NCBI GenBank assembly: GCA_965242605.1
Contig: CBDESS010000004.1
Coordinates: 321,157-385,156 of the forward strand
Direction of reading: 5' to 3'
From: an uncultured Candidatus Binatia bacterium
Lineage (GTDB): Bacteria; Desulfobacterota; Binatia; Bin18
Length of the DNA: 64,000 nucleotides
Part shown: positions 11,080 to 63,796 of the stretch, piece after piece
Position numbering within the stretch: the stretch's first letter is position 1
Layout: every line of letters begins with the position of its first letter
The notes under the pieces: generated by a model
The model's input: only the letters and a program-made list of their open reading frames with translations
Database searches by the model: none
Told to the model about the DNA's origin: nothing
Program-made: the position numbers and the translations under genes

Positions 11080-11241
11080 TGACGACTCCTCTTGCCCCAT
11101 GAGTATGGCACGCCCAGAACTGCACGGGTGAATTTGATATATTTCGGCCCCAATAGCCCGATGAACAAGCCGAGGGCTTGCGCACCGCGGACGGGCCGGA
11201 TACAAGGCCCAAGACAGCACAACACAGAGGGAGAACGAGTT

Positions 11242-11742
11242 ATGGATGCAGACGCCAAAAAGACCGCCTTACGCATGATTCCGTATGGCCTGTATGTCCT
11301 GACCGCCGAAAAAGACGGCGAGATTGCCGCGGCAACCGTCAACTGGGTGACGCAGACCGCGTTTGATCCGCCGCTGGTAGTGGTCGGGGTGAAGGGCGAC
11401 TCCGGTGCGCACGAGATTGTGAAAAAAGCCGGCTGTTTTGCCCTGAACATCCTGGGCAAGGGACAGCAAGGCCCGGCCTTTGCCTTCTTCAAGCCGGTTG
11501 AGAAGGACGGCAACACCATTAACGGCCAAGTCTACAGAGCCGGCAGCACCGGCTCGCCCGTACTGGAGAGCGTACCGGCCTATGTCGAGTGCTCGTTGGA
11601 GCAGACGGTTGAGAACGGCGACCACTCGGTCTTTATCGGCAAGGTGGTTGACGCGGTTGTCCAGAAACAGCCCGAGGGCCGGGCCGACGCCGCCACGCTG
11701 ACTATGGCCGACCTGGGCGAAAAGGTCTTCTACGGCGGCTAA
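11242..11742 (+). CDS. Flavin reductase-like domain protein (HpaC/NtaB-like)
   Basis: LRMIPYGLYVLT, TVNWVTQTAFDPPLVVV, GDHSVFIGKVV; start at MDADAKK. Confidence 0.9.
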   Translation: MDADAKKTALRMIPYGLYVLTAEKDGEIAAATVNWVTQTAFDPPLVVVGVKGDSGAHEIVKKAGCFALNILGKGQQGPAFAFFKPVEKDGNTINGQVYRAGSTGSPVLESVPAYVECSLEQTVENGDHSVFIGKVVDAVVQKQPEGRADAATLTMADLGEKVFYGG

Positions 11743-11768
11743 AGCCGTCTGCCCCCTGAGATTCCCCG

Positions 11769-11808
11769 GCCTCTCTGTCTCTGCCCGCGCTGACAGAGGG
11801 GCTTTTTT
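11769..11808 (+). terminator. Probable intrinsic terminator
   Basis: CCTCTCTGTC...GACAGAGGGG stem followed by TTTTTT. Confidence 0.55.
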
Positions 11809-11827
11809 GCATAGGAGGAGGACAAGC

Positions 11828-12133
11828 ATGGGAGATTTCATCAAAGTCGCCCAGAGGAGTGATATCCCGGACGGCGGGGGGAAGTGCGTTGAGGTCGAAG
11901 ACAAGCAGATCGCCATCTTCCAGGTCGAGGGCGAGTATTACGCTATTGACAATATCTGCCCCCACCAGGGCGGCCCGCTGGACGAGGGCGAACTTGACGG
12001 CACGACCGTGATCTGCCCCTGGCACGGCTGGGAATACAATGTGACGACCGGCGAGAACCTGGACGACCCGGACGTGAAACAAGACACCTACACGGTCAAA
12101 CTTGACGGCGACGACATTCTGCTTGAAGTCTGA
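11828..12133 (+). CDS. Rieske [2Fe-2S] ferredoxin (NirD-like)
   Basis: CPHQGG and CPWHG Rieske ligands; GGAGG RBS. Confidence 0.92.
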   Translation: MGDFIKVAQRSDIPDGGGKCVEVEDKQIAIFQVEGEYYAIDNICPHQGGPLDEGELDGTTVICPWHGWEYNVTTGENLDDPDVKQDTYTVKLDGDDILLEV

Positions 12134-12160
12134 ACAAACCGAACGGGGGCGAAGACGGCC

Positions 12161-13249
12161 ATGACTGCGCTGTTTGACATCATGCACGCCGAAGACTACG
12201 AACAGGTGGTCTTTTGCGCCGACCGCTCGGCCGGACTCAAGGCGATCATCGCCATCCACGACACGACCCTGGGGCCGGCCCTGGGCGGGATGCGCCGGCG
12301 GGCCTATACGACTGAGGCCGAAGCCGTCACCGACGCCCTGCGGCTGGCCAAGGCCATGACTTACAAGGCCGCGCTGGCCGGGCTGGACTACGGCGGCGGC
12401 AAGGCGGTGCTGATTGCCGAGCGTCCCGTCACCGAGGCGCAACGAGAGGTACTGTTCCGCGCCCTGGGCCGCTCAATTGAATCGCTGGCCGGCCACTACA
12501 TCCCAACCGAAGACATGGGCACCTCGACCGTGGATATTGAACGAGTGCGCAAAGAGAGCCGCTTTGGCGTTGGCCGGGAAGAAGTCTTTGGCGGCGGCGG
12601 CGACCCCTCAGAGATGACAGCCTGGGGCATCTTCTGCGGCCAGCGGGCGTGTCTCGAAGAGCTGGACGGCACGGCCGACTTCGGGGGCAAGACCGTGGCC
12701 CTGCCCGGTCTGGGCAAGGTCGGCTATCCGCTGGCCCGCCACGTGCACCAGGCCGGAGCGCGGCTGATTGTGGCCGATGTGGACGCCAGCCGCACCCGGC
12801 AGGCCGAGGCCGACCTCCAGGCCCGGGTGGTCGGCCCCCAGGACATTTACAGCCAGGAGTGCGACATCCTGGCCCCGTGCGCCGCGGGCGGCCTGTTTCA
12901 CAGCCAGACCATTCCCCACCTGCGCTGCCGGATCATTGCCGGCGGGGCCAACAACCAACTGGTGAGCGACGAGGACGGCGACGCCCTGTCCGACCGGGGC
13001 ATTCTGTACGCGCCCGATTTCGCCATCAACGCCGGCGGCCTCATCAATGTTGCTGACGAACTCGGCCCCGGCGGCTACCGGCGTGAGCGGGCCCAGGCCA
13101 AAACCGAAACCATCTATACCACGCTCAAAACGTTGTTTGCCGAGGCTAGGCAACGCAACATCCCCGCCCATCGTCTGGCCGTCACCCTGGCCCAGGAACG
13201 CATCCGGGCGGTGCGGGAGTTGCGCCGCATGAACGCCGCCCCGGCATAA
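12161..13249 (+). CDS. ldh: Leu/Phe/Val dehydrogenase
   Basis: IAIHDTTLGPALGGMR, LAKAMTYKAALAGLDYGGGKAV, GLGKVG, IIAGGANNQL, YAPDFAINAGG. Confidence 0.9.
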   Translation: MTALFDIMHAEDYEQVVFCADRSAGLKAIIAIHDTTLGPALGGMRRRAYTTEAEAVTDALRLAKAMTYKAALAGLDYGGGKAVLIAERPVTEAQREVLFRALGRSIESLAGHYIPTEDMGTSTVDIERVRKESRFGVGREEVFGGGGDPSEMTAWGIFCGQRACLEELDGTADFGGKTVALPGLGKVGYPLARHVHQAGARLIVADVDASRTRQAEADLQARVVGPQDIYSQECDILAPCAAGGLFHSQTIPHLRCRIIAGGANNQLVSDEDGDALSDRGILYAPDFAINAGGLINVADELGPGGYRRERAQAKTETIYTTLKTLFAEARQRNIPAHRLAVTLAQERIRAVRELRRMNAAPA

Positions 13250-58483: not shown

Positions 58484-60523
58484 ATGCCAAACCCCGAGCG
58501 TTCTCCCGCCGGGCAGGCCCTTGACCTGTCCCGACTCGAAGCCTGCATCACCGCCGCCGCAGCCTGGTTGTACCAACACCAGGCCGAGGACGGCTACTGG
58601 GTCGGCATGGTGGAGTCCAACTGCTGCATGGAGGCCGAATGGCTGCTGGCCATGCACATGCTGGGCTACGAGCATCCGCGCCGCCATGCCATCGTTCAAA
58701 CCCTGCTCAACGCGCAGCGCCAAGACGGCGCGTGGGAGATTTACTACGCGGCACCGGACGGCGACATCAATACCACCGTCGAGTGCTACGCCGCGCTGCG
58801 GGCCAGCGGCTTTGCGCCCGACACCCCGGCCCTGGGCAAGGCCCGCGACTGGATTTTGGCCCACGGCGGATTCGACACCATCCGCGTGTTTACCCGCTAT
58901 TGGCTGGCGCTCATCGGCGAGTGGCCGTGGGACAAAACGCCCTGCCTGCCGCCCGAGGTGATCGCCTTCCCTCGGTGGTTTCCGTTCAGCATTTACAATT
59001 TTGCTTCCTGGGCGCGGGCGACCCTGGTTCCGCTGACCATTCTGTCGGCCCGCCGCTTCTGTCGTCCCCTGCCGCCCGAGCGGCGCTTGAACGAACTCTT
59101 TCCCCTGGGCCGGCAGCCGGCCTACACCGCCCTGCCGCGCAAGAGCGGCCTGTTCTCGTGGCAGACCTTTTTCCTGGCCGCCGACACCGCCCTACGCACC
59201 TATCAACAGATCGGTTTCACCCCTGGCCGCGAAGCCGCCATCCGCCAGTGTGTGGAATGGATCATCAAACACCAGGACGCCGACGGCGCGTGGGGCGGCA
59301 TTCAGCCGCCGTGGGTCTACAGTCTGATGGCGCTCTACGCCGAGGGCTATCCGCTCAGCCACCCGGCCCTGGCCGCGGGTCTAACTGCCCTTGACGCCCA
59401 CTGGTCATACGAGCGGGACGGCGGGCTGCACATTCAGGCCAGCGAATCGCCGGTCTGGGACACGCTGCTGTCGAGCCTGGCGCTGCTCGACTGCGGCTAC
59501 CAGCTCCGGCAGTCAGAGCCGATGCAGACCGCACTCGACTGGATTCTTGCCCACGAGGTCGTGAGCGGGGGCGACTGGCAGCTCAGCCTGCCCGAGGTCA
59601 CTCCCGGCGGTTGGGCGTTTGAGCGGGCCAACGCCGCCTACCCCGATATTGACGACACCGCGGTCGCCCTGATCGTTCTGGCCCAGCTGCGCAAACAGTG
59701 TCCTGACGACCGGCGTTTTGACGCCCCGATTGCCCGTGCCGTAGACTGGATACTGGCGATGCAGTCCGGCAACGGCGGTTGGGCCGCGTTTGACCGCGAT
59801 AACAACAAACAGCTGCTGACCACGATCCCGTTTTGTGATTTCGGCGAAGCCCTTGACCCGCCCAGCGTCGATGTTACTGCCCATGTGGTTGAAGCCTTCG
59901 GCCTGCTCGGCTACGACGCCTCCCAGCCGGCAATGGCCCGCGCGCTGGCCTACATCCGCGCCGAACAAGAACCCGAGGGCAGCTGGTTTGGACGCTGGGG
60001 GGTGAACCATATCTACGGCACGGCCGCGGTGCTGCCGGCCCTGCGGGCGATCGGCCAAGACATGGGTGCCGCCTATGTTCAGCGAGCCGGCCACTGGCTG
60101 GCGGCCCACCAGAATGCCGATGGCGGCTGGGGCGAAACCTGCGCATCGTACATGGATGACCGCCTGCGCGGCACAGGGCCGAGCACCGCCTCCCAGACCG
60201 CCTGGGCGCTCATGGCCCTGGTGGCCCTGGACGGACGGGATTTTGAGACCTCAATTCGTCGGGGGGCGGACTACCTGGTCCGCACCCGGCGCGGCGGCAG
60301 CTGGGACGAGCCGTACTATACCGGCACCGGCTTCCCCGGTTATGGCACCGGTGCGCGGACCGCTCTCCAGGTCCAGGACATGAAAGAACGCTTTGCCCAG
60401 GGCACCGAACTCCAGCGCGGCTTCATGATTAACTACAACCTCTACCGCCACTATTTCCCGCTCATGGCGCTGGGCCGTGTGCGGGCGTATTTCAGCCGTG
60501 CCGAATCCCGCCCGGACGGCTAG
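58484..60523 (+). CDS. shc: Squalene-hopene cyclase
   Basis: QAEDGYW, QRQDGAW, QW repeats, catalytic PDIDDTA, WFGRWGVNHIYGT, YTGTGFPG, YRHYFPLMALGR. Confidence 0.95.
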   Translation: MPNPERSPAGQALDLSRLEACITAAAAWLYQHQAEDGYWVGMVESNCCMEAEWLLAMHMLGYEHPRRHAIVQTLLNAQRQDGAWEIYYAAPDGDINTTVECYAALRASGFAPDTPALGKARDWILAHGGFDTIRVFTRYWLALIGEWPWDKTPCLPPEVIAFPRWFPFSIYNFASWARATLVPLTILSARRFCRPLPPERRLNELFPLGRQPAYTALPRKSGLFSWQTFFLAADTALRTYQQIGFTPGREAAIRQCVEWIIKHQDADGAWGGIQPPWVYSLMALYAEGYPLSHPALAAGLTALDAHWSYERDGGLHIQASESPVWDTLLSSLALLDCGYQLRQSEPMQTALDWILAHEVVSGGDWQLSLPEVTPGGWAFERANAAYPDIDDTAVALIVLAQLRKQCPDDRRFDAPIARAVDWILAMQSGNGGWAAFDRDNNKQLLTTIPFCDFGEALDPPSVDVTAHVVEAFGLLGYDASQPAMARALAYIRAEQEPEGSWFGRWGVNHIYGTAAVLPALRAIGQDMGAAYVQRAGHWLAAHQNADGGWGETCASYMDDRLRGTGPSTASQTAWALMALVALDGRDFETSIRRGADYLVRTRRGGSWDEPYYTGTGFPGYGTGARTALQVQDMKERFAQGTELQRGFMINYNLYRHYFPLMALGRVRAYFSRAESRPDG

Positions 60524-60575
60524 GCCGACGCTCACCCCTCCGGCTCCTCAGCGTCGCTTGGTCAGGGTCACTCTC

Positions 60576-61127
60576 TCACTGTGGAGGCTTCTGGCCGAGT
60601 CGATGGGCCGAGGTGATGTCTTTGACTTTGCGAGCGACAGCGGGGTCAAAAGGCATCCCAAGGTGGCCCATCTCCTTTCTGACTCGATCTGTCTGCTGCT
60701 CGGTGAGCAACTTGGCCGACCCTCGAACGACCCCCTCCCACATATTCACATAGTTGACAGAATTGTCCGAGGCGACACGCTGGAACAGCCCGTCTGTATC
60801 AAAGTGGAACGCTGTCACAGTATTGTCGTAATTGCCCCCCCCCGCGAGCAGGCCAACGAAAGGGACGAATGTGGCCCCATGCATCGTATACTTAGTGTAG
60901 TAGTAAATCCATGCGGACTCATCACCTGTGTACACGACATCATGTGGCTGCCCAAAGTGTGTGTGGACTCCGCGTTTGGTCGTGACACCTTGCTCAAGCT
61001 GCATGTACCGGCCAACGTCGGTCAGGTGGGGATTCCCCAACTGCGCGGAGCAACCGGAGAGCAACGCCACACTGACCGCAATGGCTGTGGCAGCCATCCG
61101 GACCGGAGTGGATTTGTATTTTTTCAT
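60576..61127 (-). CDS. Predicted lipoprotein, SmpA/OmlA (BamE)-like domain
   Basis: GAAAGGAG RBS, lipobox LSGC, LEQGVTTKRGVHTHFGQP...WIYYY. Confidence 0.75.
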   Translation of the reverse strand: MKKYKSTPVRMAATAIAVSVALLSGCSAQLGNPHLTDVGRYMQLEQGVTTKRGVHTHFGQPHDVVYTGDESAWIYYYTKYTMHGATFVPFVGLLAGGGNYDNTVTAFHFDTDGLFQRVASDNSVNYVNMWEGVVRGSAKLLTEQQTDRVRKEMGHLGMPFDPAVARKVKDITSAHRLGQKPPQ

Positions 61128-61155: not shown

Positions 61156-61177
61156 GCCTAATTCAGGTCAACCGCGT
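61156..61177. repeat. 22-bp direct repeat, left copy
   Basis: GCCTAATTCAGGTCAACCGCGT, identical to 63405-63426. Confidence 0.92.
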
Positions 61178-61414
61178 TGGGCGTATGGCGCTCACCAATC
61201 ACATCTTGCAAAGCGTCTTTGGACTGGTGATCTTACACGGTTTCGGGCTTGGGCTGTGGAACGACCTCGCCCGCCATCAGCTGTACGCCATCGTGCTGGC
61301 CGAGTGGGGCGTCATGCTCTGGTTGGCCGGTGGCTGGGCCGCTACCGCTTCGGCCCGCTGGAGTGGCTGTGGCGGTCGCTGGCCTGCGGGCGTGTCCGGC
61401 CCATGAGCGCGTAG
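61176..61414 (+). pseudogene. C-terminal fragment of a DUF418 (YeiB-like) membrane protein
   Basis: VGRMALTNHILQS...GFGLGLW, then after a frameshift RYRFGPLEWLWRSL; the 5' part is missing and the fragment starts at the direct repeat. Confidence 0.75.
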
Positions 61415-61882
61415 GGTAAGATTTTCATGGCTTGGAAGGTGGACGATTTCGACATCACCCCAGTGCCGGTTGAGATATTCGGCAACGAGACGGCGGTGGC
61501 AGCGGTCGGGCTTGTCCTCACTACAGAGGAGGCAGGCGTTGGCGATGGTTCTTTTGATGGATTTTCTGGCGATGCGGCGCTGTGCCATAAGAGCAAGGAA
61601 CTGATGTTCGTAGGTCTGCCAGTCACGATGGTCTTTGCGATACGCGTCCAGCATCTCTTTGGTGGGGGCGAGGTCGGGGAGATGGATGTACTTCATTCGG
61701 CAGATTTTGTTGAGGAAATACTCCAAGTCGTCTTTCTTGGCAAAGCCAGCGAGTTGAGAGATGTTGCTGAGGCGGACATCCACCAGGCGTTTGGCACCGG
61801 AGGCGCGGAGAGTGTCAAAGAAATGGGAGGCGGATTTTTTGGTGAACCCGATGGTGTACACTTTCAAGATATATCCTCTCAA
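61277..61882 (-). CDS. DUF488 family protein (second copy)
   Basis: VYTIGFTKKSA..FF, LVDVRLSNISQLAGFAK, CLLCSE..PDRCHRRLVAEYL; C-terminus runs on antisense to the DUF418 fragment. Confidence 0.88.
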   Translation of the reverse strand: MRGYILKVYTIGFTKKSASHFFDTLRASGAKRLVDVRLSNISQLAGFAKKDDLEYFLNKICRMKYIHLPDLAPTKEMLDAYRKDHRDWQTYEHQFLALMAQRRIARKSIKRTIANACLLCSEDKPDRCHRRLVAEYLNRHWGDVEIVHLPSHENLTLRAHGPDTPAGQRPPQPLQRAEAVAAQPPANQSMTPHSASTMAYS

Positions 61883-62499
61883 CCGTCCCTGCCGGCGAGC
61901 GGTATGTTACCAACATAGGCCACTTTCTGGGCTTGGCGGGCAAGGGCGTTGGCAATAATCTCGGCTCTGGAGAGGAAAAAATCTCCATCGTGGGGAAGCT
62001 TGAACAGGTCCAAGAGGCGGTTCATAGCGGCGTCATGGCTTTCCAGACTGCCATCGGCCAGTATATGCTCAACAACCATACCACGCTCAACGAGGGAGCG
62101 GGCGATCAGCAGGGTGCGGTGGCATTCCAGCGGTTCTTTTTCGGTACACATCAGGGCGATGCGACGTTCGACAGCGACATGGAGCAGGCGCTGAATGCCG
62201 TTATTGAACTGGTCAGTGTCGGCTACGCGATCGTACTGGACGCGGCCGTTGGCATCGTAGCAGGAGTGGTCGGCAGGACGGCCGCCGAGTTCGCTGCCGA
62301 AGAAGGTGCAGGCGATGCCAACTTCGTCCAATGTCCGGGGCAGGGAGTGGTGGTTGAAGTGGGGCGTATAGCGGCTGTAGGGGTCGGAGCGAACATCGGC
62401 GACCTCCTCCACGCCGTGCTGCTGGAGCAGTTGCAGGAAGGTATCGGGGGCATGGTTGGAGTGGCCGATGGTGAAGATGGGGTATGGAGTTGCGGTCAC
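61879..62499 (-). CDS. DUF488 family protein (first copy)
   Basis: IFTIGHSNH, VADVRSDPYSRY, ELGGRP, ALMCTEKEPLECHRTLLI. Confidence 0.9.
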   Translation of the reverse strand: MTATPYPIFTIGHSNHAPDTFLQLLQQHGVEEVADVRSDPYSRYTPHFNHHSLPRTLDEVGIACTFFGSELGGRPADHSCYDANGRVQYDRVADTDQFNNGIQRLLHVAVERRIALMCTEKEPLECHRTLLIARSLVERGMVVEHILADGSLESHDAAMNRLLDLFKLPHDGDFFLSRAEIIANALARQAQKVAYVGNIPLAGRDG

Positions 62500-62515
62500 G
62501 GGAGAGATGTCTTCA

Positions 62516-63235
62516 TCAAGGCTGGATTACAGCAGCGATGAGTTTGTAGCTATATTCTTTCAATGGTTTGCCAAGTTTGTAGCTATATTCTTTCAATGGT
62601 TTGCCAAGGCTGACGGTGAGAAAAGCTTCGCCGACCTGGACCTGATAGTCACCACCGGGCTTTTGCAGATACGGGCGCTCGTAGATGTAGATAGGGTCGG
62701 TTATTTTGAGCCAGTAGTCCATTTCAGCATAGTGGAAACGTCCCTGCACCCACCAGGGTGGGGATACAAACAGTTCCAGCCGGTCAACCTTGATGAAACG
62801 CAGCGAGTCTTCAAGGGAGCGGGCGACCGAGAGGGGGACTCGATCGTTCTTTCCATCAGTTGTGCTATGTCCATCGGTCCAGAGTGGAGCTATTGGGTCG
62901 GTGAATCGGGCCAGTTCATTTCCAGCAACTCTCCGAATCCTTTCCCAGCGGGCTTCCGGGTCAAGCAACCAGTTTTCTTGCTGATAATCCTGTGGCTGGG
63001 GCTTGAGGAGTGGCACGTCAATAACGTCAAGAGGGCGGGGGTCGCTGCCATCTTCGTACCGCCGCTCCCGCTTAGATACTCCCTGGGATTTCCTGGCGCT
63101 TACGGGGCGAATCCAATCGCCAATCTGTCCATCGGCCAGCAGTTCTTTTCCGGCGATACAGCGCCAGCGATCTTGCTCTTTCCCCTTTCGCGAATTGGCC
63201 AAACATACAATGCGTTTGACAGTGGTGACACTCAT
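62516..63235 (-). CDS. Dual-OB-fold domain protein
   Basis: KRIVCLANSRK...CIAGKEL, WIRPVS, QPQDYQQENWL, LKITDP, LTVSLG.P...YKLIAAVI; AGGAGG RBS before MSVTTV. Confidence 0.8.
   Translation of the reverse strand: MSVTTVKRIVCLANSRKGKEQDRWRCIAGKELLADGQIGDWIRPVSARKSQGVSKRERRYEDGSDPRPLDVIDVPLLKPQPQDYQQENWLLDPEARWERIRRVAGNELARFTDPIAPLWTDGHSTTDGKNDRVPLSVARSLEDSLRFIKVDRLELFVSPPWWVQGRFHYAEMDYWLKITDPIYIYERPYLQKPGGDYQVQVGEAFLTVSLGKPLKEYSYKLGKPLKEYSYKLIAAVIQP
62541..62606. repeat. Perfect 33-bp tandem duplication inside the dual-OB gene
   Basis: AGTTTGTAGCTATATTCTTTCAATGGTTTGCCA x2, giving LGKPLKEYSYK twice. Confidence 0.95.
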
Positions 63236-63264
63236 AACCTGCCTCCTGCGAGAGGGTGAGGACC

Positions 63265-63293
63265 AACATACCACACTGGTGAAAGAGCGTCAA
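63265..63293 (-). promoter_or_regulatory. Sigma70-like promoter for the dual-OB/DUF488 operon
   Basis: Minus-strand TTGACG-N17-TATGTT, about 30 nt upstream of ATG 63235. Confidence 0.6.
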
Positions 63294-63404
63294 GTCAGCA
63301 CTGTGTGGCGAAGGCATCATGCTTATGAGTGTCGCCGCCCTCCCCTCTGCGGCCAGTCAATTTGACGGGTCAGCACCCATCTCCTTATCCCCACAATTTT
63401 GCCC

Positions 63405-63426
63405 GCCTAATTCAGGTCAACCGCGT
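63405..63426. repeat. 22-bp direct repeat, right copy (3' end and stop codon of the DUF2237 gene)
   Basis: Identical to 61156-61177; encodes (Y)AVDLN-stop on the minus strand. Confidence 0.92.
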
Positions 63427-63796
63427 ACTCGCGCAGGAGTTCCAGCGGGACAATATCCAGGGCGCGCTGGTGGGTGCGGGTCAGGTAGACCCGGGGGGCC
63501 ATGTCGTGCTGGTAGGCTTCGAGCCAGCGGGCGGCACACAGACACCAGCGGTCGCCCGGCTGGACGCCCGGGAAGCCGAACTCGGGCCGGGGCGTTGACA
63601 GGTCATTGCCGCGCTGGCGGGAGAAGTCCAGAAACTCCCGGCTGGCCTCAACGCACACGGTGTGCGAGCCGTGGTCCTGCTGGCTGGTGTTGCAACAGCC
63701 GTCGCGGAAGAAGCCGGTCAGCGGCCGCTCGCTACAGGCCTCAAGCGGCTCACCAAACACATTGACCGAGTCGTCCATCTTGTGGGTTTCCATCAT
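63407..63796 (-). CDS. DUF2237 family protein
   Basis: NVFGEPLEACS..PLTGFFRDGCC, GSHTVC, GNDLSTPRPEFGFPG..PGDRWCLCAARW; AGGAGG RBS. Confidence 0.93.
   Translation of the reverse strand: MMETHKMDDSVNVFGEPLEACSERPLTGFFRDGCCNTSQQDHGSHTVCVEASREFLDFSRQRGNDLSTPRPEFGFPGVQPGDRWCLCAARWLEAYQHDMAPRVYLTRTHQRALDIVPLELLREYAVDLN

What the first reader, a model, noticed from the sequence alone, without database searches (positions are those of the whole stretch)
61156..63426. 2.25 kb islet flanked by a perfect 22-bp direct repeat equal to the 3' end of the DUF2237 gene
Seen: GCCTAATTCAGGTCAACCGCGT occurs at 61156-61177 and 63405-63426, and the right copy contains the last codons and stop of DUF2237. Between them lie the dual-OB and two DUF488 genes and a DUF418 fragment cut at the left repeat. 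Removing one repeat plus the interior would leave an intact DUF2237 gene 30 nt upstream of the lipoprotein start codon. Established: duplication of a target gene's 3' end is the hallmark of site-specific integration. Inference: a protein-coding attachment site used by an integrase acting in trans, or the remnant of a larger element, delivering a defence-like cargo.
Basis: partly seen in the sequence, partly recalled or inferred. Interest (0 to 1): 0.7.

Follow-up and report, generated by a model that had tools for sequence, protein, structure and literature searches.

The report
Defence-hotspot insert with duplicated gene end
The 22-bp repeat is real and sister genomes do carry the exact empty site, but the 2.2-kb piece is best read as a candidate phage-defence cassette plus a relic of the old neighbouring gene, joined to another version of a hypervariable defence hotspot by illegitimate recombination rather than by an integrase.

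Summary
GCCTAATTCAGGTCAACCGCGT occurs exactly twice (61156-61177 and 63405-63426), and the right copy is the end of DUF2237. The predicted empty site exists: in sister Binatia genomes about 90% identical, DUF2237 abuts the lipoprotein gene, and the two window flanks overlap by exactly the repeat.

The "islet" is composite.
- The DUF418 fragment is not cargo. In more distant relatives a full DUF418 gene sits convergent to DUF2237, followed by a PQQ dehydrogenase, ATE and then SHC.
- DuOB plus two DUF488 genes match the PADLOC candidate defence system PDC-M45. They fill the old DUF2237/DUF418 spacer from stop codon to stop codon.
- The left repeat copy is 20 nt of DUF2237 3' end that arrived with the lipoprotein segment. 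It is joined inside DUF418 at a 2-nt (AC) microhomology.

The DUF2237-SHC interval is a defence hotspot. It holds at least three alternative cargoes between 99.5%-identical flanks, and none of 23 related loci shows a second att-like copy.

No integrase, inverted ends, excision joint or circle joint was seen in eight sponge metagenomes.

One run shows a second allele (an SNase gene) abutting the left repeat, so the repeat has recombined more than once.

Verdict: an ordinary hotspot mosaic made by illegitimate recombination, of moderate interest.

The parts
63407..63796 (-). DUF2237 gene, the conserved left anchor of the hotspot. Its last 17 coding nt plus stop plus 2 nt form the right repeat copy.
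   Evidence: PF09996, E 7e-54. 91% aa identity to P0125 and 88% to P0126. Homology among relatives ends 0-2 nt after the stop codon.
63405..63426 (.). Right copy of the 22-bp direct repeat (native DUF2237 3' end).
   Evidence: Contigs of X1, X3 and X5 run across it.
62516..63235 (-). DuOB (dual-OB) protein, PADLOC PDC-M45A. First gene of the cassette. Its own promoter-like region lies at 63236-63404.
   Evidence: PF22557, E 1.8e-57. PDLC04653, E 4e-74. The same three-gene order occurs in the unrelated contexts L087 and L088.
62541..62606 (.). Exact 33-bp tandem duplication inside the DuOB 3' end (adds GKPLKEYSYKL). Polymorphic between strains.
   Evidence: Family D2. X7 has a contig that skips 33 nt, and X5 replaces 113 nt by 68 nt here.
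61879..62499 (-). DUF488 protein, PDC-M45B.
   Evidence: PF04343, E 2e-20. PDLC04657, E 3.5e-77.
61277..61882 (-). DUF488-N3a protein, PDC-M45C. The conserved part ends near 61437 (..VEIVHL). The tail that follows reads antisense through the DUF418 relic because there is no stop near that end.
   Evidence: PF04343 and PF22751. PDLC04658, E 1e-71. Alignment with the 165-aa homologues and the L002 remnant.
61176..61414 (+). Relic of the DUF418 gene: about the last 80 codons plus the stop at 61412-61414. It has no 5' part. The window strain has a 4-nt deletion after 61324.
   Evidence: blastn 82-84% to full-length DUF418 of L001, L103 and L106 at the syntenic place. tblastn to residues 348-427 of the 427-aa protein. 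A CGGC insertion in X3-X6 restores the frame.
61156..61177 (.). Left copy of the repeat. It consists of 20 nt of DUF2237 3' end attached to the lipoprotein segment, plus 2 nt (61176-61177, AC on the minus strand) shared with DUF418. This is the illegitimate junction.
   Evidence: In X4 a second allele diverges exactly at 61156/61157.
60576..61127 (-). Lipoprotein gene with a signal peptide and lipobox (LSGC) and no Pfam or PADLOC match. It is the cargo of the alternative hotspot allele.
   Evidence: 90% aa identity to P0001/P0002, which lie directly after DUF2237 in L082/L083.
60524..60556 (.). Spacer next to the SHC stop that is still homologous to the 3' end of the ATE (arginyl/leucyl-transferase) gene of the ancestral arrangement.
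   Evidence: blastn to L001 reaches 60556. tblastn of ATE residues 235-270 matches 60561-60454. Also shared with the SNase allele L089.
58484..60523 (+). Squalene-hopene cyclase gene, the conserved right anchor of the hotspot.
   Evidence: ORF. SQHop_cyclase Pfam hits on the orthologues. 91-92% nt identity to L089-L091.

Best explanation
The interval between the convergent core genes DUF2237 and squalene-hopene cyclase (SHC) is a hypervariable hotspot rich in defence genes in this clade of sponge-associated Candidatus Binatia.

Shown: the ancestral layout, kept in more distant relatives, is DUF2237 -> <- DUF418, PQQ dehydrogenase ->, ATE -> <- SHC. Cargo is inserted between DUF2237 and DUF418.

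Shown: the window lineage once had that layout. The three-gene PDC-M45 cassette (DuOB, DUF488, DUF488-N3a) fills the DUF2237/DUF418 spacer exactly from stop codon to stop codon.

Shown: a second kind of allele exists in the nearest relatives, namely DUF2237 followed directly by the lipoprotein gene and then SHC.

Inferred: DNA of the two allele types recombined. One end used ordinary homology (SHC, or DUF2237). The other end was joined illegitimately at a 2-nt AC microhomology between the interior of DUF418 and a point 20 nt before the end of the DUF2237 3' region that precedes the lipoprotein gene. This is the pattern of homology-facilitated illegitimate recombination.

That single event explains four things at once:
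- it deleted the DUF418 5' part, the PQQ dehydrogenase and most of ATE;
- it left the DUF418 3' relic and a 33-nt ATE relic;
- it placed the lipoprotein gene next to SHC;
- it created the 22-bp direct repeat as a by-product.

Inferred: once present, the repeat offers enough identity for occasional precise loss or transfer of the module. This would explain why the same junction is found in front of two different downstream cargoes.

No dedicated integrase is needed.
For: 1. DUF418 is a native neighbour of DUF2237.
- A full-length DUF418 gene lies convergent to DUF2237 in L001, L100, L102, L103, L105 and L106. Where the locus reaches far enough it is followed by PQQ dehydrogenase, ATE and SHC.
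- Window 61405-61176 aligns to the DUF418 3' end at 82-84% identity. The flanks align at 83-85%.
- A 33-nt ATE relic lies beside SHC.

2. The junction looks illegitimate.
- Window: ..GCCATACGCCCAAC|GCGGTTGACC..
- Relatives: ..GCCATGCGCCCGAC|CGCCGCCAGG..
- DUF2237: ..GCGCGAGTAC|GCGGTTGACC..
- Only AC is shared.

3. The DUF2237-lipoprotein adjacency exists independently in L082/L083. The overlap of the two flank alignments equals the repeat.

4. The interval behaves as a hotspot.
- The identical DUF2237 protein P0125 is followed by SNase, by a UvrD-type helicase, or by lipoprotein plus ApeA.
- The flanks of these three alleles are 99.3-99.7% identical. The breakpoints lie 1-2 nt after the DUF2237 stop and within about 5 nt of the SHC stop.
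- P0126-type genomes carry AAA_16, ApeA plus T5orf172, AAA_15/21, an MmeI-type restriction-modification gene, or nothing.
- L002/L081 carries HicB, a Gp49/HTH pair, HEPN, a Type ISP restriction-modification gene and a DUF488 remnant.

5. Breakpoints are ragged in the way random events filtered by selection would be.
- The SHC C-terminus differs in one allele (681 against 679 aa).
- UvrD overlaps SHC.
- DUF488-N3a runs on past its conserved end with no stop.
- DUF418 is truncated in L099 and L101.

6. Mobile-element hallmarks are absent.
- No second copy of the DUF2237 end in 23 related loci.
- No integrase in the syntenic 20-kb loci.
- No terminal inverted repeats.

7. The filled arrangement is fixed across strains 97-100% identical in 8 runs and in L085 (94%). 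There is no skip-2249 or back-joint.

8. The mechanism is established elsewhere. [quoted passage not shown]
Against: - The two copies are 100% identical over 22 nt, whereas the sister species differs at one position. The two parental alleles must therefore have been very close, or the copies were homogenised. An in-situ duplication would give this identity for free.
- In run X4 a 126-nt unitig joins the same DUF418/repeat junction to a different downstream gene. It matches the start of the SNase allele at 26 of 30 nt, and the breakpoint is exactly at the outer end of the repeat.
- Both cargoes also occur without the module in the sister species. So at least one further recombination, or a recurrent precise deletion, happened within about 20 nt. 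That is more site-focused than a one-off accident predicts.
- Five different cargoes begin within 1-3 nt of the DUF2237 stop.
- The direction of change (insertion into an empty allele, or deletion from a filled one) is not resolved.
- Contigs cannot show rare excision products.
Confidence: 0.6

Rival explanations
1. Site-specific integration. The 22 bp are the core of an att site in the DUF2237 3' end. The 2.2-kb unit, or a larger element of which it is the remnant (a CIME-like element), was inserted as a circle by a tyrosine or serine recombinase encoded elsewhere, and could still be excised in trans.
For: - A perfect direct repeat includes a gene's 3' end.
- An exact empty site exists in sister genomes.
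- A second allele in X4 breaks exactly at the outer repeat edge, so the site was used more than once.
- Several cargoes start 1-3 nt after the stop codon.
- The cargo is defence-like.
Against: - One end of the 'element' is a truncated gene that is the syntenic native neighbour of the target, in the right orientation and at flank-like divergence.
- The inner junction shows 2-nt microhomology with DUF418.
- No recombinase gene lies in or near the locus in the window or relatives.
- None of 23 other occupied loci has attL/attR-like copies.
- In P0126-type genomes insertions also lie at other points of the spacer.
- Right-hand breakpoints are ragged.
- No excision or circle joints in 8 runs.
Confidence: 0.1
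2. The filled state is ancestral and the repeat is a repair by-product. The 20 nt were copied from the nearby DUF2237 end as templated filler when a deletion in an ancestral-type locus was repaired next to an incoming lipoprotein gene. The 'empty site' of the sister species then arose later, by repeat-mediated precise deletion (slippage or short-homology recombination), possibly more than once.
For: - The repeats are identical.
- The lipoprotein gene and the flanks are equally diverged (89-91%) between the window and L082. This fits long vertical co-residence rather than recent transfer.
- Both lipoprotein and SNase cargo exist with the module (window, X4) and without it (L089-L098). Recurrent deletion across a 22-bp repeat would produce this.
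Against: - It needs an unexplained way to bring the lipoprotein gene to that spot, plus an exact templated copy that ends 2 nt after a stop codon.
- The SNase and lipoprotein junctions with the DUF2237 end look homologous between species. That is simpler if the adjacency to the real gene came first.
- No intermediate is known.
Confidence: 0.2
3. Assembly or binning artefact: the repeat marks a chimeric join of two contigs.
For: The genome is a metagenome-derived assembly, and short repeats can mislead assemblers.
Against: - 22 bp is shorter than the k-mer used by Logan.
- Independent contigs of X1 and X2 are identical across both copies.
- Diverged strains in X3, X5, X7 and X8 and in the ENA scaffold L085 show the same joins.
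Confidence: 0.01

Closest known systems
Core-gene-flanked defence hotspots (for example the Pseudomonas aeruginosa core defence hotspots, PMC10250203, and E. coli hotspot #37 in PMC10121019, where 68% of occupied cases show no detectable mobile element)
   Same: Two conserved core genes bracket a short interval. In near-identical strains it holds alternative, mostly defence-type cargo: ApeA, restriction-modification genes, AAA ATPases, toxin-antitoxin pairs, HEPN and PDC-M45. No mobility genes are present.
   Different: Here the organism is an uncultured sponge-associated Binatia. The interval runs stop codon to stop codon between convergent genes. One allele keeps a duplicated 20-22 nt of the anchor gene's end, which records how two alleles were fused.
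Homology-facilitated illegitimate recombination (de Vries & Wackernagel 2002; Prudhomme et al. 2002; Meier & Wackernagel 2003, as cited in PMC5361080; PMC3240628). The same process is proposed for sequential displacement in T6SS effector-immunity and Rhs arrays.
   Same: A homologous anchor on one side. A short-microhomology joint on the other (AC). Loss of resident DNA (DUF418 5' part, PQQ dehydrogenase, ATE) and gain of non-homologous DNA. Orphaned remnants are left behind.
   Different: The process is inferred from sequence only. The uptake route (transformation or another) in Binatia is unknown. The joint fell inside the anchor gene's last 20 nt and so produced a direct repeat.
Integrase-less att-flanked elements (cis-mobilisable elements, CIMEs, derived from ICEs; recalled from the literature, not checked here)
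   Same: A short unit without recombination genes, bounded by direct repeats that include the 3' end of a gene. Empty sites occur in relatives.
   Different: One end of the unit is a relic of the host's own neighbouring gene. No cognate integrase or parent element is known. The repeat is absent from all other occupied alleles.
PADLOC candidate defence system PDC-M45 (DuOB + DUF488 + DUF488-N3a)
   Same: All three genes hit the A, B and C models at E 1e-72 to 1e-77, in the canonical order. The same triad occurs in L087 and L088.
   Different: The third gene runs on past its conserved end with no stop and carries a roughly 50-aa unconserved tail. The first gene carries a strain-specific 11-aa duplication. 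Function is untested.

Membership tests
Site-specific integrative element (genomic island / CIME) | A recombinase (integrase) gene in the element, or a demonstrable trans-acting one | tested here: not met
   No recombinase among the genes between the repeats. None among called genes within about 10 kb in the syntenic relatives.
Site-specific integrative element (genomic island / CIME) | Both ends are element DNA bounded by attL/attR that share a core | tested here: not met
   The repeat is present. However, the inner left end is the relic of the native DUF418 neighbour, with a 2-nt microhomology joint.
Site-specific integrative element (genomic island / CIME) | The same att is used by other insertions at the site | tested here: not met
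   23 related loci with at least 10 different cargoes have no second copy of the DUF2237 end (16-mers, up to 2 mismatches).
Site-specific integrative element (genomic island / CIME) | Empty site and excised circle detectable | tested here: inconclusive
   The empty site is found only in a sister species about 90% identical. No skip or back-joint appears in contigs of 8 runs, but contigs drop rare variants.
Product of homology-facilitated illegitimate recombination | Illegitimate joint at a short microhomology, with loss of resident DNA and gain of foreign DNA next to a homologous anchor | tested here: met
   An AC joint. The DUF418 5' part, PQQ dehydrogenase and ATE 5' part are missing relative to L001/L106. 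The lipoprotein segment is gained. SHC and DUF2237 serve as anchors.
Product of homology-facilitated illegitimate recombination | The event is observed, or the parental alleles are both identified in the same population | tested here: inconclusive
   Both parental allele types exist only in related species (L082/L083; L001/L106). Neither was seen within the window species.
Core-gene-flanked defence hotspot | Conserved flanks with alternative cargo in closely related genomes | tested here: met
   Three cargoes lie between flanks 99.3-99.7% identical. Further cargoes occur in the P0126 clade and in L002.
Core-gene-flanked defence hotspot | Cargo enriched in defence genes | tested here: met
   ApeA_NTD1, MmeI/Type ISP restriction-modification, AAA_15/21, AAA_16, HEPN, HicB, Gp49/HTH and T5orf172 by precomputed Pfam. 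PDC-M45 by PADLOC. No function was tested.
PADLOC PDC-M45 candidate system | Three adjacent genes matching models A, B and C | tested here: met
   E 4e-74, 3.5e-77 and 1.2e-71, in order and on one strand.
Transposon / MITE | Terminal inverted repeats and a short target-site duplication | tested here: not met
   No inverted repeat at the ends 61178 and 63404. The duplication is 20-22 nt.

The most novel reading that the evidence does not exclude
The last roughly 20 nt of DUF2237, including its stop codon, might be a dedicated recombination site. An unidentified trans-acting recombinase of these Binatia would use it to load, stack and swap defence cargo precisely behind the stop codon, like an integron platform that has no local integrase or attC sites. 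The window allele would then be a two-cassette stack, and the X4 allele a swap at the second site.
Probability: 0.1. Interest if true: 0.7.

Novelty: new member of a known kind. Interest (0 to 1): 0.33.

Why it matters
This gives a rare base-pair-level record of how a defence hotspot without mobility genes is remodelled in an uncultured sponge symbiont. Two alternative alleles were fused, leaving a duplicated gene end, a relic of the old neighbour and a candidate defence cassette.

The DUF2237-SHC interval is also a compact place to look for new single-gene defence candidates (SNase, a UvrD-like helicase, lipoprotein plus ApeA).

The find does not reveal a new kind of mobile element.

Tried and rejected
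The rest of the genome could not be searched for integrases, further copies of the 22-mer, or a full DUF418.

Searches that found nothing:
- Exact look-ups of the window's lipoprotein and DuOB proteins found no record.
- An exact-pattern scan of JGI metagenome contigs for CCTAATTCAGGTCAASCGCGT found nothing.
- The X4 and X6 variant flanks (30 and 27 nt) had no blastn match among the loci held at the time of those searches. The X4 flank was recognised only after the SNase-allele loci (L089 and others) were fetched.
- Literature searches for DuOB, DUF488 and PDC-M45 gave nothing on the cassette's function.

Other:
- One regex script timed out.

Readings rejected:
- Transposon or MITE: no inverted ends.
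- Integron cassette: no attC-like repeat and no second site at the distal cargo end.
- Assembly artefact: independent contigs agree.
Full report
**Observation.**
- The 22-mer GCCTAATTCAGGTCAACCGCGT occurs exactly at 61156-61177 and 63405-63426. It occurs nowhere else in the window even with two mismatches, and none of 100 shuffles gave any match (family D9).
- Read on the minus strand, the right copy is the end of a DUF2237 gene (PF09996, E 7e-54)..Y A V D L N stop, plus 2 nt.
- Between the copies, all on the minus strand, lie a DuOB gene (PF22557), a DUF488 gene and a DUF488/DUF488-N3a gene.
- On the plus strand there is a DUF418 C-terminal fragment that ends at its own stop codon, 61412-61414.
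- A lipoprotein gene (60576-61127) starts 30 nt beyond the left copy, and a squalene-hopene cyclase gene (SHC, 58484-60523) converges on it.
- GC content is 52-57% over most of the insert and over the lipoprotein gene, against 63-70% in the flanks.

**Is it real DNA?**
- Logan contigs of two runs (X1, X2) are identical to the window across both copies. They break only at a 33-bp tandem duplication.
- Six further runs from four studies, mostly sponge metagenomes, hold strain variants 97-99% identical with the same joins: X3, X4, X5, X7 and X8 at the left copy, X3 and X5 at the right copy.
- An ENA scaffold (L085, 94% identical) also has DUF3617-DUF2237-DuOB.
- No contig skips the 2,249 bp and none joins its ends into a circle. 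Contigs would not show rare forms.

**The empty site exists.**
- Homologues of the lipoprotein (P0001 and P0002, 90% aa) lie in two assemblies, L082 (3.6 Mb contig) and L083. There the order is DUF3617, DUF2237, lipoprotein, ApeA_NTD1, then SHC convergent.
- These are the closest relatives found, at 89-92% nt over 6.5 kb.
- Window 64000-63404 aligns to L082 9386-9966, and window 61177-60571 aligns to L082 9944-10554. The two alignments overlap by 23 nt, which is the repeat.

**The insert is not a simple element.**
- The genome-collection scan with DUF2237 and the look-ups of its nearest protein clusters show a deeper layout. In the next clade out (L001, L100, L103, L106 and others; 81-86% nt), DUF2237 faces a full-length DUF418 gene, followed by a PQQ dehydrogenase, an ATE-type aminoacyl-transferase and SHC.
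- In L106 only 90 nt separate DUF2237 and DUF418.
- Window 61405-61176 aligns to the 3' end of that DUF418 gene at 82-84%. The flanking core genes are at 83-85%.
- A further 33 nt beside the SHC stop (60524-60556) still match the ATE gene's end.
- So the DUF418 fragment and the ATE scrap are relics of the lineage's own former neighbours. They are not cargo.
- The three-gene cassette occupies the old DUF2237/DUF418 spacer exactly from stop codon to stop codon.

**The junction.** At the left copy the sequences, in gene orientation, are:
- window: ..GCCATACGCCCAAC|GCGGTTGACCTGAATTAGGC
- full-length DUF418 genes: ..GCCATGCGCCCGAC|CGCCGCCAGG..
- DUF2237..GCGCGAGTAC|GCGGTTGACC..

Only AC is common to both parents. 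The repeat is therefore 20 nt of DUF2237 end that came with the lipoprotein segment, plus a 2-nt microhomology. This is the signature of an illegitimate joint, not of strand exchange within an att core.

**The locus is a hotspot.**
- One and the same DUF2237 protein (P0125) is followed by an SNase-domain gene, a 702-aa UvrD-type helicase, or lipoprotein plus ApeA.
- The flanks of these three alleles are 99.3-99.7% identical. Breakpoints lie 1-2 nt after the DUF2237 stop and within about 5 nt of the SHC stop.
- The P0126 clade carries, between DUF2237 and DUF418, nothing, an AAA_16 ATPase, small ORFs, ApeA plus T5orf172, an AAA_15/21 pair, or an MmeI-type enzyme.
- L002/L081 carries HicB genes, a Gp49/HTH pair, HEPN, a Type ISP enzyme and a 5'-truncated DUF488 gene 76% identical to the window's.
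- None of 23 such loci has a second copy of the DUF2237 end.
- No recombinase gene is called within about 10 kb.
- The insert has no inverted ends.
- Breakpoints are ragged. The SHC C-terminus differs in one allele, UvrD overlaps SHC, DUF418 is truncated in L099 and L101, and the window's DUF488-N3a has no stop near its conserved end, so it reads about 50 codons antisense into the DUF418 relic.
- This is what repeated illegitimate replacement filtered by selection on the two core genes would leave.
- Hotspots of this kind, without identifiable mobility genes, are described in Pseudomonas and E. coli (PMC10250203, PMC10121019).

**Most likely history.**
- An ancestral-type allele (DUF2237, cassette, DUF418, PQQ dehydrogenase, ATE, SHC) and an alternative allele (DUF2237, lipoprotein, SHC) recombined.
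- One end used homology. The other was joined at the AC microhomology.
- The event deleted the DUF418 5' part, the PQQ dehydrogenase and most of ATE, and produced the duplicated 20-22 nt.
- This is the pattern of homology-facilitated illegitimate recombination, also proposed for sequential displacement in T6SS and Rhs arrays (PMC5361080, PMC3240628).
- I put this at about 0.6.

**What does not fit neatly.**
- In run X4 two unitigs share the 30-mer 61157-61186. One continues into the lipoprotein gene (depth 16). The other (depth 10) continues into ..ACGACAGCGGCGTATTCCATTGTTCATCGC. On the gene strand this matches the first 30 nt after the DUF2237 stop of the SNase allele at 26 of 30 positions.
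- So the same DUF418/repeat junction precedes two cargoes, and both cargoes also occur without the module in the sister species.
- By four-gamete logic, at least one more exchange, or a recurrent precise deletion, took place within the roughly 20 nt of the repeat.
- Short-homology recombination or slippage across a 22-bp repeat can do this. It is also the best remaining argument for a site-specific system (rated 0.1).
- The alternative in which the filled state is older and the empty site arose by repeat-mediated deletion is rated 0.2.
- The direction of change is unresolved. The lipoprotein gene and the flanks are equally diverged between the window and L082 (89-91%), which argues against recent transfer either way.

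**Cargo.**
- The three genes match PADLOC's candidate defence system PDC-M45 A, B and C (E 4e-74, 3.5e-77, 1.2e-71).
- The same triad occurs elsewhere next to DUF4238, a resolvase or DUF4062 (L087, L088).
- DuOB has 3,458 relatives at E <= 1e-10 in the protein collection.
- No paper on its function was found.

**Limits.**
- A JGI metagenome scan for the repeat found nothing.
- Read-level evidence for or against rare excision is missing.

**Verdict.**
- The integrase interpretation is not favoured, although an insertion/deletion polymorphism at the repeat is real.
- This is a new example of a known kind of thing, a defence hotspot mosaic with an illegitimate-recombination scar, and it is of moderate interest.

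Noticed in passing
window 62541-62606: An exact 33-bp tandem duplication at the DuOB 3' end adds 11 residues (GKPLKEYSYKL). It is absent in a strain in run X7, and in X5/L086 the same region is replaced (113 nt by 68 nt). The C-terminus of this candidate defence protein varies between strains.
   Followed up: partly
window 61324: Strains in X3, X4, X5 and X6 have CGGC inserted here, which puts the DUF418 relic back in one frame. The window strain has a 4-nt slippage deletion. The indel also changes the unconserved read-through tail of DUF488-N3a.
   Followed up: yes
window 61277-61436: DUF488-N3a (PDC-M45C) has no stop near its conserved end (..VEIVHL) and runs on for about 50 codons antisense through the DUF418 relic. 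Homologues are 165 aa.
   Followed up: partly
L089-L098 (DUF2237-SHC interval): Within one species (flanks 99.5% identical) the interval holds either a 172-aa membrane-anchored SNase-domain protein, a 702-aa UvrD-like helicase, or lipoprotein plus ApeA. The first two are single-gene defence candidates worth testing.
   Followed up: no
L099-L107: Between DUF2237 and DUF418 the P0126-type genomes carry an AAA_16 ATPase, a YgiT/MqsA-like zinc-finger ORF, ApeA plus T5orf172, an AAA_15/21 pair or an MmeI-type enzyme. DUF418 is C-terminally truncated in L099 and L101.
   Followed up: no
L001 10440-11252 / 11138-12385; window 60454-60561: The ATE gene overlaps the convergent SHC gene's 3' end by about 115 nt in the ancestral layout. 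The window keeps the overlapped part and 33 nt beyond it.
   Followed up: partly
window 60562 (run X6): A 363-nt contig follows the SHC 3' flank to 60562 and then diverges (GTCCCGCTGGCGTTTCCGCATGGGGCG). This is another, unidentified allele at the right edge of the hotspot.
   Followed up: partly
L084 10001-11481: In the L001 genome a 63%-identical homologue of the lipoprotein lies elsewhere, next to an IS (DDE_Tnp_1/DUF4096) and a HicB-like gene. The lipoprotein gene is therefore itself part of the accessory pool.
   Followed up: no
window 61175-61374 (runs X1, X4): A contig of a second organism (depth 63.5 against 31.4 in X1, 14.8 against about 15-16 in X4) carries a full-length DUF418 about 79% identical to the relic. 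It reads through the breakpoint (..CCTGGCGAAGGTTCGCGGCGCCCTCGCCGC before 61175).
   Followed up: no
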